DNA of 64,000 bases from Candidatus Limnocylindria bacterium (GTDB lineage Bacteria > Chloroflexota > Limnocylindria > Limnocylindrales > CSP1-4), in the NCBI GenBank assembly GCA_046566045.1, contig JBKHXL010000014.1:4917-68916 (forward strand), read 5' to 3'. Positions 40,116-43,481 of the stretch are shown here, in pieces. Numbering within the stretch: the stretch's first letter is position 1; the number at the start of each line of letters is the position of its first letter. A model generated the notes under the pieces. The model searched no databases and was not told where the DNA came from. It was given only the letters and a program-made list of their open reading frames with translations. The position numbers were made by a program, and so were the translations under genes.

Positions 40116-41348
40116 GTGCTCCCCCCCGACCGAGACGATGCCGACAGGCTGGCGACCGTCCGCGCCGCGCTCCCGGCCCTGTCCGCCGGGATCTACCTCA
40201 ACACCGGTTCGGTCGGCCCGCTGCCGGCCGAGACCGCTGCGGCGATGGCCGAGATGGCCGAGTACGAGCTTCGCACCGGCCGCGCCCACATCGACTACTA
40301 CCACGAACTGCTGCAGCGCCTCGACGAGGCCCGGGCGGCCGTCGCCGCCGTCCTCACCGCCGATGTGGACGACATCGCCCTGACCCATGCCACGACCGAC
40401 GGCATGAACATCGGCGCGTGGGGCATCGACCTGGCGCCCGGCGACAACATCGTGACCACGAACCTCGAGCATCCGGGGGGCATGGGACCGCTGTACGTCC
40501 TGCGCGATCGGCGCGGTGCGGACCTGCGCATCGTCGACGTCGGGCTGGGCGACGACCGAGACCGGATCCTGGCCGCCTTCGACGCCGCCATCGACGCCCG
40601 GACGCGACTGGTCTCCCTGTCGCACGTCCTGTGGGCGACCGGCGCGCTGCTGCCGATCGCCGAGATCGCGGCCATGGCGCACGCCCGCGATGCCCTCGTG
40701 GTGGTCGACGGCGCCCAGAGCGCCGGGGCGATCCCGGTCGACCTCGCGGCGACCGGCGCCGACGTGTACGCCATCCCGGGCCAGAAGTGGCTGATGGGCC
40801 CCGAGGGCACCGGGGCCGTCGCGGTGACCCGCGCCGCCCGCGAGCGCCTCGCGCCGACGTACGCCGGGCACTACACGTTCGAGCGCTGGGACGCGTCGGG
40901 GACGGGTATCCCGTGGGCCAGCGCGCGCCGCTACGAGGGCACGAGCTGGCACCGGCCGTCCATCGTCGGGATGGCCCGTTCGATCGGCTGGCTGAGCATG
41001 TTCGTCGGCCTCGACTGGATCCACGCCCGCGGGGCGGCGATGGCCGTGGCCGCCCATGACCGGCTGTCGGCCATCCGGGGCGTCACGGTCGTCACGCCAC
41101 GGCACGCGATGGCCGGCCTGGTCAGCTTCCGGGTCGACGGCTGGTCGGCCCAGGCGGTCTTCGAGGAGCTGGGCGCGCGCGTCTTCGCCGTCACGCGGAC
41201 GATCCCGCTCGTCGAGGCGGTCCGCCTGAGCGTCGCCTGCTTCACGACCGAGGAGGAGATCGACCGCGTGGCGTCGTGCGTCGCCCTGCTGGCGGCCCAC
41301 ACGCCGGAGACGGTCCCGCCGCGTCGGTCGCTGACGCTGCTCGGCTGA
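40116..41348 (+). CDS. Class V aminotransferase (cysteine desulfurase / SufS-CsdA-like PLP enzyme)
   Basis: N-terminus VRAALPALSAGIYLNTGSVGP; PLP-lysine region SHVLWATG...; C-terminus typical of AAT_V. Probable GTG start at 40116 (no in-frame ATG). Confidence 0.75.
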   Translation: MLPPDRDDADRLATVRAALPALSAGIYLNTGSVGPLPAETAAAMAEMAEYELRTGRAHIDYYHELLQRLDEARAAVAAVLTADVDDIALTHATTDGMNIGAWGIDLAPGDNIVTTNLEHPGGMGPLYVLRDRRGADLRIVDVGLGDDRDRILAAFDAAIDARTRLVSLSHVLWATGALLPIAEIAAMAHARDALVVVDGAQSAGAIPVDLAATGADVYAIPGQKWLMGPEGTGAVAVTRAARERLAPTYAGHYTFERWDASGTGIPWASARRYEGTSWHRPSIVGMARSIGWLSMFVGLDWIHARGAAMAVAAHDRLSAIRGVTVVTPRHAMAGLVSFRVDGWSAQAVFEELGARVFAVTRTIPLVEAVRLSVACFTTEEEIDRVASCVALLAAHTPETVPPRRSLTLLG

Positions 41349-42232: not shown

Positions 42233-42320
42233 CCGAGGCCCCTGGGGGCACGGCGACCGACCCGCGCGGCGGGTGTAGCATCGACGCGTCCCGCGGGGCC
42301 GACGCGCCCCTCGGTCCGGC

Positions 42321-42396
42321 GGGGGAGTAGCTCAACGGTCAGAGCGGCGGGCTTATATCCCGCTGGTTCCAGGTTCGAGTCCTGGCTCCCCTACCA
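42321..42396 (+). tRNA. tRNA with anticodon TAT (UAU), which implies tRNA-Ile for AUA, with an encoded CCA end
   Basis: Manual cloverleaf: acceptor GGGGGAG/CTCCCCT (G1-U72), D-arm GCTC-AACGGTCA-GAGC, anticodon stem GCGGG/CCCGC with loop CTTATAT, variable loop TGGTT, T-arm CCAGG-TTCGAGT-CCTGG, discriminator A, CCA. Coordinates are +/-1. Confidence 0.75.
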
Positions 42397-42455: not shown

Positions 42456-43208
42456 TCACTGGACCGCGGAGCGCACCTGCTCGACCATCCGCTCGCGACG
42501 TCCCTCGGTCAGGCTGCGCTGAACGGGGAGCGCGGCGATCCACGGGCCGAGCCGGTCTGGGGTGAGGACGGCGCATGCCGCCGTGCGCTCGATGACCGGG
42601 TCCGGTCCGACCACGGCCGCGTAGACCTTGACCACGAAGTCGGTGTCGTCGTGACCGAACCAGCGGCGCACCCGCTCGGCGTCGCGCGCCGCCCGATCGA
42701 GCGGGCTCTCGAGAGGCATCCAGCCGCGCGTCGTGCGCAGCTCCCAGCGCCCGGCCCGGACGCGCGTCAGGTCGGCCGGCGGCAGCTCGCGGATGACGGC
42801 TGCCCCGAACGGACCGACGACGAGGTCGGACACCGTCCGGCCGTCCGGCAGGACCAGACCGGAGGCCGCCAGCGTGTCCTGCGGCAGGTCGCCCAGGGCG
42901 CGCACCAGGGGGGAGCGGTGGCGGCCCTGCGCGCGCACGGCCGCGAGGTCGCGGGCCAGCCGGTGGACCCCGACCAGGATCGATCCGGCCGGGGCCACCA
43001 GGGCCGCGGCCCAGAGCGCCATGCCCGCCACCAGCTGCATCCCGTCCGGCCGTCCCGCCGGCACGGCCTGCGACAGGAGTGGCGTGGCGAATGCCGCGTA
43101 GCCGGCGGCCAGGCCGACGGCCACGAGCAGCGTGGCCACGACCGCTCGCCCCATGATCGCGGCGAGGACGCGGGGCGAGGCGAGGCGAGGCACGCTGACG
43201 GGCTGCAT
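42456..43208 (-). CDS. NERD (nuclease-related domain)-like membrane protein
   Basis: Two N-terminal TM helices, then DLVVGPFGAAVIRELPPADL..., which resembles the NERD core. ATG at 43208; the longer 275-aa track start is rejected. Confidence 0.5.
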   Translation of the reverse strand: MQPVSVPRLASPRVLAAIMGRAVVATLLVAVGLAAGYAAFATPLLSQAVPAGRPDGMQLVAGMALWAAALVAPAGSILVGVHRLARDLAAVRAQGRHRSPLVRALGDLPQDTLAASGLVLPDGRTVSDLVVGPFGAAVIRELPPADLTRVRAGRWELRTTRGWMPLESPLDRAARDAERVRRWFGHDDTDFVVKVYAAVVGPDPVIERTAACAVLTPDRLGPWIAALPVQRSLTEGRRERMVEQVRSAVQ

Positions 43209-43481
43209 GGCCCTATCCTCGCGCGGATCGGCCGCGCAGCCAATGGCGCGACGGGGGTACCACGGACCCGCTGGAGGGCCCATCGGCTACTCCGCAGTAC
43301 ACCGCAGTCGTCCGGCCTGTCGCGGCTGCGATGCGGCCGCGCACCGAACCCGGGGGCGTCCGGACACCGGTCGGCGGCCCGCGTCGGGACCCCCGTACCA
43401 TTGCCGGGCACGGCCACCACGGGCATCCTCGCGGGCAGGATCCGGTCCCAGCATCCGGACAGCGCCAGGACCTGCCACATC

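What the first reader, a model, noticed from the sequence alone, without database searches (positions are those of the whole stretch)
42321..42396. tRNA whose anticodon loop reads CT-TAT-AT, an apparent tRNA-Ile(UAU)
The manual cloverleaf places TAT at positions 34-36. Most bacteria decode AUA with a lysidine-modified CAU tRNA and lack a UAU isoacceptor. A genomically encoded UAU tRNA-Ile is known from only a few lineages, and it is unexpected in a high-GC genome where AUA codons are very rare. Alternatively, the loop could be mis-parsed and the gene could carry a different identity.
Basis: seen in the sequence. Interest (0 to 1): 0.6.

Follow-up and report, generated by a model that had tools for sequence, protein, structure and literature searches.

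The report
Lineage-wide UAU isoleucine tRNA gene
The window holds a genuine tRNA gene with the rare anticodon UAU, kept at the same chromosomal spot in over a hundred species of an uncultured, very GC-rich Chloroflexota class (Limnocylindria), where it most likely reads the rare isoleucine codon AUA directly; I could not check whether the usual lysidine-modified CAU tRNA system is also present.

Summary
ARAGORN and Rfam both call a canonical 76-nt tRNA at 42321-42396 (+) with anticodon TAT at 42354-42356.

It is not a mis-parse, a pseudogene or a recent mutation.
- The source is not an actinobacterium. It is a roughly 73-77% G+C member of Candidatus Limnocylindria (Chloroflexota).
- The same tRNA sits at the same syntenic site in 7 of 7 relatives chosen only by a flanking protein.
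- With the anticodon left free, a family-specific scan of species-representative genomes gave 119 hits. Of these, 112 carry TAT and none carries CAT or GAT.
- The stems show extensive compensatory changes, and a -10-like motif is conserved upstream.
- AUA is rare (0.37 per 1000 codons) but used. It sits at positions where orthologues have Ile, with a substitution spectrum like AUC and unlike AUG.

Best reading: a vertically inherited, functional tRNA-Ile(UAU) that decodes AUA, as in Mycoplasma mobile or Bifidobacterium. I could not test whether it replaces or only supplements TilS/tRNA-Ile2(CAU). This is a new lineage for a known kind of system, of moderate interest.

The parts
42321..42396 (+). 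tRNA gene, anticodon UAU, 76 nt including the encoded 3' CCA
   Evidence: ARAGORN; Rfam RF00005 at 71.7 bits, E = 1.1e-13; cloverleaf minimum-free-energy fold; family covariation
42347..42363 (+). anticodon stem-loop: stem GCGGG/CCCGC, loop CUUAUAU
   Evidence: Rfam alignment. All five stem pairs show changes on both sides across 29 distinct family members
42354..42356 (+). anticodon TAT (U34 A35 U36), complementary to the codon AUA
   Evidence: invariant in 112 of 112 family members from other genomes
42393..42396 (+). discriminator A73 plus genomically encoded CCA end
   Evidence: sequence. A73 was fixed by the search pattern, so its constancy is uninformative; the CCA lay outside the pattern and is present in all TAT family members
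42274..42281 (+). promoter-like element TG-TAGCAT (-10-like hexamer TAGCAT at 42276-42281), 39 nt upstream of the mature 5' end (inferred, not shown to be a promoter)
   Evidence: TAGCAT, TACGAT and TAGGAT occur in 49, 19 and 17 of 112 family upstream regions and in 0 of 112 downstream regions. The generic sigma-70 scan found nothing

Best explanation
This is a functional, chromosomally inherited tRNA-Ile(UAU) of a Limnocylindria (Chloroflexota) genome.

Shown: it is a canonical tRNA with anticodon UAU. It has been held at one syntenic locus across more than 100 species under structural selection. AUA codons in this lineage are rare but present, and they occupy Ile positions.

Inferred mechanism: the gene is transcribed from a TAnnAT-type -10 promoter with a short leader and matured by RNase P, with the CCA already encoded. 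A37 is made t6A, as in other tRNAs that read ANN codons. IleRS charges it with isoleucine. U34 pairs with the A of AUA on the ribosome while reading AUG poorly. That matches what was measured for the unmodified-U34 tRNA-Ile(UAU) of Mycoplasma mobile and for the Bacillus subtilis G34U suppressor.

Because AUA makes up only about 0.04% of codons, one low-demand gene is enough, and the cost of occasional AUG misreading is small.

Open: whether this tRNA is the only AUA decoder (TilS and tRNA-Ile2(CAU) lost) or works alongside them. I put the sole-decoder version at about 0.4-0.45.
For: - Real tRNA with UAU anticodon.
- Lineage: the flanking class V aminotransferase has its best named relatives in Ca. 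Limnocylindrales/Chloroflexota MAGs. Titles of the tRNA hits agree; taxonomy.
- Unbiased conservation: 7 of 7 relatives chosen by the flanking protein alone (67-82% amino-acid identity), with enough flank, have tRNA(tat) at the same site.
Of these, 112 have TAT and none has CAT or GAT. There are 58 distinct sequences.
- Structural selection: on 29 distinct members 98.5% of cells are paired. All 5 anticodon-stem pairs and 3 of 5 T-stem pairs change on both sides. Register-shifted controls fall to 45-60% paired.
- Vertical inheritance: the order aminotransferase-orf131-tRNA persists even where the aminotransferase is only 33-40% identical.
- Need for a decoder: ATA accounts for 56 of 153,087 codons and occurs in 47 of 443 genes.
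- Meaning of AUA: residues aligned to ATA in orthologues are I 43%, V 18%, L 12%, M 5.5%. That matches ATC (I 44%) and not ATG (M 46%). Individual ATA codons lie where 35 of 36, 32 of 37, 23 of 30 and 14 of 15 orthologues have Ile.
- Expression signal: a conserved -10-like motif lies upstream only.
- Independent hint of function: phage-like contigs L128 and L129 carry a copy 93% identical to a chromosomal one and use ATA about 20 times more often.
- Precedents for the mechanism: PMC3575796 and PMC3919564.
Against: - There is no direct evidence of transcription, aminoacylation or the modification state of U34.
- Several E. coli IleRS identity elements are not kept. From my own knowledge of Nureki et al. 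1994 (cited in PMC3575796): position 38 is U or C rather than A, the 29:41 pair varies freely, and 4:69 is G:C.
- E. coli-type IleRS charges a UAU tRNA about 360-fold less well than an LAU tRNA (PMC3575796), so an adapted IleRS is required. I could not inspect the lineage's IleRS.
- The substitution test shows that AUA means Ile. It does not show which tRNA reads it; a lysidine tRNA could also be present.
- The generic promoter and terminator scan found nothing.
- In the window itself only one clearly in-frame ATA remains (39078, in the DUF6812 gene), and it lies at a variable hydrophobic position.
Confidence: 0.82

Rival explanations
1. A redundant extra isoacceptor. The lineage keeps the standard TilS plus tRNA-Ile2(CAU to lysidine) system, and the UAU tRNA only supplements it, as proposed for Lactobacillus casei, Cyanothece PCC 7424 and Ferrimonas balearica.
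For: Some bacteria carry both systems (PMC3575796). tilS is nearly universal in bacteria (PMC3575796, PMC8007984). Nothing I could run shows that tilS is absent here. The window and the roughly 1 Mb of fetched loci cover only one genomic neighbourhood, so their lack of a PP-loop ORF says nothing about the rest of the genome.
Against: Where both systems coexist, the reported UAU genes are sporadic (single species or strains in PMC3575796). Here the gene is held at one locus in 7 of 7 unbiased relatives and in 112 species, under strong structural selection. That is how an essential, non-redundant tRNA behaves. This argument is an inference, not a test.
Confidence: 0.4
2. A rare-codon regulatory tRNA. 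The tRNA does decode AUA, but its main significance is control: its level gates translation of the few genes that contain AUA, by analogy with bldA tRNA-Leu(UAA) and TTA codons in high-GC Streptomyces (analogy from my own knowledge).
For: AUA is confined to about one gene in ten at roughly one codon each. The gene is a solitary single-copy tRNA with its own conserved upstream element.
Against: In the about 1 Mb sampled, ATA codons are scattered over unrelated genes and are mostly not conserved as ATA between orthologues; the same positions are ATC, GTC and so on elsewhere. That looks like mutational drift, not a maintained regulatory codon. No enrichment in regulators could be assessed from a single neighbourhood.
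Confidence: 0.1
3. Different identity. The anticodon is UAU, but the tRNA is charged with another amino acid or is used outside ribosomal decoding, for example as a substrate of a tRNA-dependent transferase.
For: E. coli-type IleRS identity elements are only partly present. The G1-U72 top pair is unusual. ARAGORN names the isotype from the anticodon alone. A LPG_synthase_TM gene and the editing factor AlaXM occur in the window but are far from the tRNA.
Against: AUA codons occupy conserved Ile positions with an Ile-like substitution spectrum. A35, U36, A37 and A73, the core Ile determinants, are all present. The structure is a fully canonical elongator cloverleaf at 71.7 bits. No tRNA-dependent enzyme is a conserved neighbour.
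Confidence: 0.04
4. A mobile or decaying gene: recently acquired from a phage or integrative element, an attachment-site remnant, or a pseudogene made by a C34-to-T or G34-to-T mutation.
For: Phage tRNA arrays often include tRNA-Ile(UAU) (L127, L130, L131), and a phage-like contig carries a near-identical copy (L128, L129).
Against: There is no integrase or phage gene near the tRNA in the window and no compositional break. Synteny is conserved across the class. No CAT or GAT variant of this body exists in Limnocylindria-type contexts, either among 119 genome hits or in the metagenome scan, whose similar CAU tRNAs are from Caulobacterales. Compensatory evolution rules out a pseudogene. The direction of transfer more likely runs from host to phage.
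Confidence: 0.02

Closest known systems
Mycoplasma mobile tRNA-Ile2(UAU) (Taniguchi et al. 2013, PMC3575796)
   Same: A genomically encoded bacterial tRNA with anticodon UAU and A37 that decodes AUA as Ile by U34-A pairing. It is a single dedicated gene.
   Different: M. mobile is a tiny, AT-rich, reduced genome where AUA is common and tilS is demonstrably absent. U34 was shown to be unmodified, IleRS carries Arg865 for U34 recognition, and the ribosome excludes AUG. Here the genome is free-living and about 75% G+C, AUA is about 0.04% of codons, and none of those molecular features could be examined.
Bifidobacterium and Neorickettsia tRNA-Ile(UAU) with eukaryote-type IleRS (IleRS2) and no tilS (PMC3575796, PMC3919564)
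   Same: A lineage-level rather than strain-level presence of a UAU tRNA-Ile. Bifidobacterium is also a fairly GC-rich, Gram-positive-type lineage.
   Different: A different phylum and an unrelated tRNA sequence family. The tilS status and IleRS type of Limnocylindria were not determined here.
Lactobacillus casei, Cyanothece PCC 7424 and Ferrimonas balearica: UAU tRNA-Ile coexisting with tilS (PMC3575796)
   Same: This would be the matching case if Limnocylindria turn out to keep tilS.
   Different: Those are isolated species or strains. Here the gene is conserved and syntenic in more than 100 species.
Bacillus subtilis tilS-deletion suppressor tRNA1-Ile G34U (Kohrer et al. 2014, PMC3919564)
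   Same: It shows that an unmodified U34 tRNA-Ile can read AUA far better than AUG on a normal bacterial ribosome with near-wild-type growth. That is the mechanism inferred here.
   Different: A laboratory mutant of the major GAU tRNA, not a natural dedicated gene.
Canonical bacterial tRNA-Ile2(CAU) modified to lysidine by TilS
   Same: Same decoding job (AUA = Ile). D-loop length and variable loop (UGGUY) resemble E. coli tRNA-Ile2 as I recall its sequence; that is a lead, not a test.
   Different: Position 34 is T, not C, in every member, so TilS has no substrate in this tRNA.
Streptomyces bldA tRNA-Leu(UAA) (my own knowledge)
   Same: A solitary tRNA for the rarest A-ending codon in a very GC-rich genome.
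   Different: bldA's TTA codons are conserved in specific regulators. The ATA codons seen here are not conserved as ATA between orthologues.

Membership tests
tRNA (Rfam RF00005) | Covariance-model score above the gathering threshold, with a full-length cloverleaf | tested here: met
   71.7 bits against 29, model positions 1-71 of 71, E = 1.1e-13; ARAGORN
tRNA (functional gene, not a pseudogene) | Base pairs maintained by compensatory substitutions across homologues | tested here: met
   98.5% of cells paired; 8 pairs change on both sides; slid controls 45-60%. The acceptor stem was fixed by the search pattern and is uninformative
Bacterial tRNA-Ile(UAU), the AUA decoder | Anticodon U34 A35 U36 with U33 and A37 | tested here: met
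   Loop CUUAUAU at 42352-42358; invariant CUUAUA in the family
Bacterial tRNA-Ile(UAU), the AUA decoder | Discriminator A73 and class I (short variable loop) architecture | tested here: met
   A at 42393 and a 5-nt variable loop
Bacterial tRNA-Ile(UAU), the AUA decoder | AUA codons in the organism specify isoleucine | tested here: met
   The substitution spectrum at ATA matches ATC and not ATG; ATA lies at positions with 14-35 orthologous Ile
Bacterial tRNA-Ile(UAU), the AUA decoder | Aminoacylation with Ile by the organism's IleRS | not testable with these tools
   Needs biochemistry. Supported only indirectly
Bacterial tRNA-Ile(UAU), the AUA decoder | IleRS adapted to U34 (Arg/Lys at the E. 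coli W905 position, or an IleRS2-type C-terminal domain) | not tested
   No IleRS gene in the window. I could not aim a search at this lineage's IleRS
TilS-independent AUA decoding (M. mobile / Bifidobacterium type) | Absence of tilS and of an Ile2-type CAU tRNA from the genome | not testable with these tools
   Only about 64 kb plus syntenic loci were readable. Protein searches list only the best 120 hits and cannot be directed at this lineage without a seed sequence
tRNA-Ile2(CAU)/lysidine or tRNA-Met | C at position 34 (CAU anticodon) | tested here: not met
   T at 42354. None of the 119 family hits has CAT. The CAT-pattern metagenome hits come from unrelated organisms
Phage- or island-borne tRNA | Adjacent integrase or phage genes, a compositional break, or a variable genomic location | tested here: not met
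   Neighbours are housekeeping-type genes. G+C is flat. Synteny is conserved across the class

The most novel reading that the evidence does not exclude
The whole class Limnocylindria, an abundant, free-living, extremely GC-rich soil and freshwater Chloroflexota lineage, may have discarded the TilS/lysidine system and rely solely on this tRNA-Ile(UAU) for AUA. That would be a further, independent and by far the most species-rich bacterial case of lysidine-free AUA decoding. It would imply lineage-specific adaptations of IleRS, and possibly of the ribosome or of U34 modification, that keep AUG from being misread.
Probability: 0.4. Interest if true: 0.55.

Novelty: new member of a known kind. 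Interest (0 to 1): 0.4.

Why it matters
Separating AUA (Ile) from AUG (Met) is a classic hard problem of the genetic code, and nearly all bacteria solve it with lysidine. The few known bacteria that use a plain UAU anticodon are mostly reduced parasites or a handful of scattered species.

A UAU tRNA fixed across an entire free-living class, at the opposite compositional extreme (about 75% G+C, AUA about 0.04% of codons), gives a natural test of two ideas. One is that the UAU solution becomes affordable when AUA demand, and so the cost of misreading, is very low. The other is that loss of tilS follows.

Practically, it warns annotators and codon-usage modellers that AUA is a decodable sense codon in these MAGs. 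It also suggests that Limnocylindria phages may carry this tRNA to support their AUA-richer genes.

Tried and rejected
1. **tilS, tRNA-Ile2(CAU) and IleRS.** I looked for a PP-loop (SGGxDS) ORF and for other tRNAs in the window and in 1.05 Mb of fetched loci and found none. Pfam annotation of 38 window ORFs shows no TilS or IleRS. This is uninformative for the genome as a whole. I found no way to aim the capped protein searches at a Limnocylindria TilS without a seed sequence, so I ran no further search on it.
2. **Literature.** No paper in the library links tilS or UAU tRNAs to Chloroflexota or Limnocylindria.
3. **Origin from a CAU gene.** A CAT-anticodon version of the family pattern gave 10 metagenome hits. 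Four have a very similar body, but their contigs are Caulobacterales, so they do not show ancestry. I dropped that idea.
4. **Phage origin.** Five viral contigs match the pattern. Three are unrelated low- or mid-GC tRNA arrays picked up only because the pattern fixes the acceptor stem. Two are phage-like contigs carrying a host-like copy. This does not fit acquisition by the host.
5. **Link to the neighbouring sulfur genes** (possible s2U34 thiolation). The rhodanese and the desulfurase-family enzyme are generic and below all NCBIfam equivalog cut-offs. No thiouridylase is present, and orf131 and orf100 have no family. Rejected as unsupported.
6. **Generic sigma-70 promoter and terminator scan.** Nothing found. 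A family-wide k-mer comparison replaced it.
7. **Recurrent 'ATA' near the rhodanese/aminotransferase divergent starts.** These are intergenic and were excluded from the codon argument.

Full report
**1. Observation**

The window contains exactly one tRNA gene. ARAGORN places it at 42321-42396 on the + strand and reads anticodon tat at position 34. Rfam's tRNA model matches 42321-42393 over its full length at 71.7 bits (gathering score 29, E = 1.1e-13), with CUUAUAU in the anticodon loop. The thermodynamic fold of the 76 nt is the cloverleaf.

From the sequence:
- acceptor GGGGGAG/CUCCCCU, with a G1-U72 top pair
- D-arm GCUC-AACGGUCA-GAGC
- anticodon stem GCGGG/CCCGC
- anticodon TAT at 42354-42356, followed by A37 and U38
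- variable loop UGGUU
- T-arm CCAGG-UUCGAGU-CCUGG
- discriminator A and an encoded CCA

**2. Which organism**

The window is 67-78% G+C throughout, with no compositional break at the tRNA. Its genes are ordinary chromosomal genes:
- ATP-dependent DNA ligase, DUF6812, a rhodanese, a class V aminotransferase/cysteine-desulfurase-family enzyme, a DNA methylase and a large LuxR/AAA regulator around the tRNA
- heliorhodopsin, MttB-family methyltransferase, dimethylglycine-oxidase-like genes, transhydrogenase, AlaXM and an ECF sigma factor elsewhere

There is no integrase or phage gene.

The flanking aminotransferase (40116-41348) has its best named relatives in 'Candidatus Limnocylindrales' and 'Chloroflexota' MAGs. 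So the genome belongs to the uncultured class Candidatus Limnocylindria of the Chloroflexota, not to the Actinobacteria one might guess from the G+C content.

**3. Conservation**

I fetched loci from relatives chosen only through that flanking protein (67-82% identity). All seven with enough flank (L004-L007, L132-L134) carry a tRNA(tat) at the same place, between the small ORFs downstream of the aminotransferase and a minus-strand ORF of 182-309 aa. In three of them the gene is inverted and its stems are rewritten with full compensation.

I then scanned one genome per species of GTDB with a pattern that fixes the acceptor stem, the T-loop and the loop framework but leaves the anticodon free.
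- 112 have TAT. All are in contigs of 63-77% G+C labelled Chloroflexota, Chloroflexia, Limnocylindria or Limnocylindrales. Five carry obviously discordant bin labels but show the same gene neighbourhood.
- None has CAT or GAT.
- The other seven are Lys-UUU, Arg-UCU and an odd UAA tRNA from other phyla.
- There are 58 distinct TAT sequences.

On 29 of them, 98.5% of stem cells are standard pairs. All five anticodon-stem pairs and three of five T-stem pairs show changes on both sides. Sliding the 3' partners by 1-3 columns drops pairing to 45-60%. The acceptor stem was fixed by the pattern and carries no information.

Gene order around the tRNA is kept across the family even where the aminotransferase has diverged to 33-40% identity.

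This is therefore an old, vertically inherited, structurally constrained gene whose anticodon has stayed UAU. It is not a mis-parse, a pseudogene, a recent point mutant of a CAU or GAU gene, or a mobile import.

**4. Is there anything for it to read, and what does AUA mean?**

In GC3-supported reading frames:
- The window has 3 ATA, 2 ATT and 687 ATC among about 18,600 codons. Only one of the ATA codons survives start-codon trimming.
- Across 443 such ORFs (153,087 codons) from the window and the Limnocylindria-type loci, ATA occurs 56 times (0.37 per 1000), in 47 genes. ATT is 0.9 and ATC 38.4 per 1000.

Scaled to a 2.4-2.7 Mb genome, this means a few hundred AUA codons in roughly a tenth of the genes. 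That is rare, but enough to need a decoder.

Aligning each ATA-containing ORF to its orthologues in other genomes gives these residues opposite ATA: Ile 43%, Val 18%, Leu 12%, Met 5.5%.
- That is the same spectrum as for ATC (44/21/17/2) and ATT.
- It is unlike ATG (Met 46%).
- Single ATA codons lie at positions where 35 of 36, 32 of 37, 23 of 30 and 14 of 15 orthologues have Ile, nearly all as ATC.

So AUA means isoleucine in this lineage. The test does not say which tRNA reads it.

**5. Expression signals**

A generic sigma-70 scan finds nothing, which is expected in about 75% G+C DNA. Comparing 112 upstream with 112 downstream 90-nt flanks is more informative. The hexamers TAGCAT, TACGAT and TAGGAT occur upstream in 49, 19 and 17 sequences and never downstream. 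They are usually preceded by GGTG/TG and usually lie 7-15 nt before the mature 5' end. In the window the motif is TGTAGCAT at 42274-42281, 39 nt upstream, as in its closest relative L004. I read this as a -10 element. That is an inference.

**6. Mechanism**

Shown: anatomy, conservation, covariation, codon meaning.

Inferred: transcription from the TAnnAT element, RNase P processing, t6A at A37, charging by IleRS, and U34-A pairing with AUA.

Precedents:
- M. mobile tRNA-Ile2 has an unmodified UAU anticodon and reads AUA but not AUG on its own ribosome. It depends on an IleRS in which Arg replaces the Trp that contacts the wobble base. E. coli IleRS charges a UAU tRNA about 360-fold less well than an LAU tRNA (PMC3575796).
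- A B. subtilis strain lacking tilS lives on a G34U tRNA1-Ile whose U34 is unmodified. That tRNA binds AUA strongly and AUG weakly, with about 10^-3 misincorporation and normal growth (PMC3919564).
- About half of bacteria use IleRS2, which has a different anticodon-recognition domain (bioRxiv 10.64898/2026.02.03.703510).

In a genome where AUA is 0.04% of codons, both the demand on this tRNA and the damage from occasional AUG misreading would be small. That may be why the simple solution is stable here. This last point is my inference.

**7. What I could not settle**

That needs whole-genome access.
- The readable sequence is one neighbourhood. It contains no PP-loop ORF and no other tRNA, which says nothing about the rest of the chromosome.
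- The protein-search tools return only the best 120 hits, so they cannot be steered to this lineage's TilS or IleRS without a seed.
- The library holds no paper on the subject.

Published cases of coexistence with tilS are sporadic species, whereas lineage-wide UAU genes (Bifidobacterium, hemoplasmas) go with loss of tilS (PMC3575796). On that basis I lean slightly toward loss, at about 0.4-0.45.

**8. Other leads followed**

- A CAT-anticodon version of the pattern found ten metagenome contigs. Four carry a CAU tRNA with the same acceptor stem, D-arm, variable loop and T-loop as the UAU family, but those contigs are Caulobacterales. This gives no evidence on the origin of the Limnocylindria gene.
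- The TAT pattern hit five IMG/VR contigs. Three are unrelated phage tRNA arrays.
- The other two (L128 and L129, about 53% G+C, with ParB-like nuclease, HNH endonuclease and polynucleotide kinase genes) carry a single tRNA(UAU) 93% identical to the chromosomal copy in L061. They use ATA at 7.4-8.3 per 1000 codons, about 20 times the host-type rate. A phage that borrowed its host's AUA decoder would explain this, and it is indirect support for function.
- The rhodanese and the cysteine-desulfurase-family gene next to the tRNA invited the idea of U34 thiolation. Both are generic and below all NCBIfam cut-offs, and no thiouridylase is nearby. I do not support that link.

**9. Verdict**

It is a new, species-rich and compositionally unexpected lineage for a known kind of system, the bacterial tRNA-Ile(UAU). 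It is not a new kind of system. Interest is moderate (0.4). It would rise to about 0.55 if the lineage proves to lack TilS.

Noticed in passing
L010:704-780(+), L017:2783-2857(+), L019:3590-3664(+), L052:5680-5755(-): Four Planctomycetota MAGs carry a 75-77 nt class I tRNA (5-nt variable loop, no long arm) with anticodon UAA (loop CUUAAAA). It has the same acceptor stem GGGGGAG/CUCCCCU-A as the UAU family and always lies about 400-450 nt from a tRNA-Cys(GCA). The four copies differ by compensatory stem changes. Bacterial tRNA-Leu is normally class II, so which amino acid this UUA-reading tRNA carries is unclear.
   Followed up: partly
L128:5073-5148(+) and L129:7653-7728(-) (IMGVR_UViG_3300002835_000958 and IMGVR_UViG_3300008262_004700): Phage-like contigs of about 53% G+C (ParB-like nuclease, HNH endonuclease, polynucleotide kinase) carry a single tRNA(UAU) 93% identical to a chromosomal Limnocylindria copy. 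They use ATA at 7.4-8.3 per 1000 codons, against 0.37 in host-type loci. They may be Limnocylindria phages that captured the host's AUA decoder.
   Followed up: partly
L140:8179-8254, L143:4331-4405, L144:3735-3810, L145:2399-2473: Caulobacterales-type contigs carry a CAU tRNA whose acceptor stem, D-arm (GCUCAAUGGUUAGAGC), variable loop (UGGUU) and T-loop match the Limnocylindria UAU family. It may be an Ile2-type tRNA, in which case the shared body could reflect common IleRS identity features. In L144 the DNA just 3' of the tRNA has lower GC3, suggesting an element integrated at the tRNA.
   Followed up: partly
window:4206-5063 (+): A heliorhodopsin gene (Pfam PF18761, E = 5.6e-79) next to a TetR-family regulator.
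   Followed up: no
window:23589-28424 (+): An MttB-family methyltransferase (PF06253, E = 4e-195), followed by a DAO/GCV_T fusion (dimethylglycine-oxidase-like) and further DAO and Fe-ADH genes. This looks like a methylated-amine or glycine-betaine catabolic cluster.
   Followed up: no
window:42430-42465: An 18-nt unit, GCGGCCGCTCACTGGACC, is tandemly duplicated about 35 nt downstream of the tRNA. It overlaps the stop codon of the minus-strand ORF 42456-43283 (read).
   Followed up: no
window:41361-41756 (+) and its orthologues in L004-L126: A 131-aa predicted membrane protein with no Pfam or NCBIfam family is the tRNA's most faithfully conserved neighbour across the class, usually ending 100-900 nt upstream of the tRNA. 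Its function is unknown, and nothing supports a link to the tRNA.
   Followed up: partly
L005:12151-12228(-), L132:8214-8291(-), L133:8168-8245(-) and the other CCGAG-type copies (e.g. L016, L059, L070): In one subgroup the tRNA gene is inverted relative to its neighbours. It has a different D-arm (GCCC...GAGGC), variable loop (AAGUC) and T-stem (GGUGG/CCACC or GGAGG/CCUCC), while keeping the acceptor stem and the UAU anticodon. The variable loop and T-stem resemble E. coli tRNA-Ile1(GAU) as I recall it, which raises the possibility of replacement or gene conversion at this locus.
   Followed up: no
window:50562-51317 (-): A free-standing alanyl-tRNA editing protein AlaXM (NCBIfam NF040865, E = 7e-70, below the equivalog cut-off) about 8 kb from the tRNA. 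In relatives a YbaK-like tRNA_edit gene follows it.
   Followed up: no
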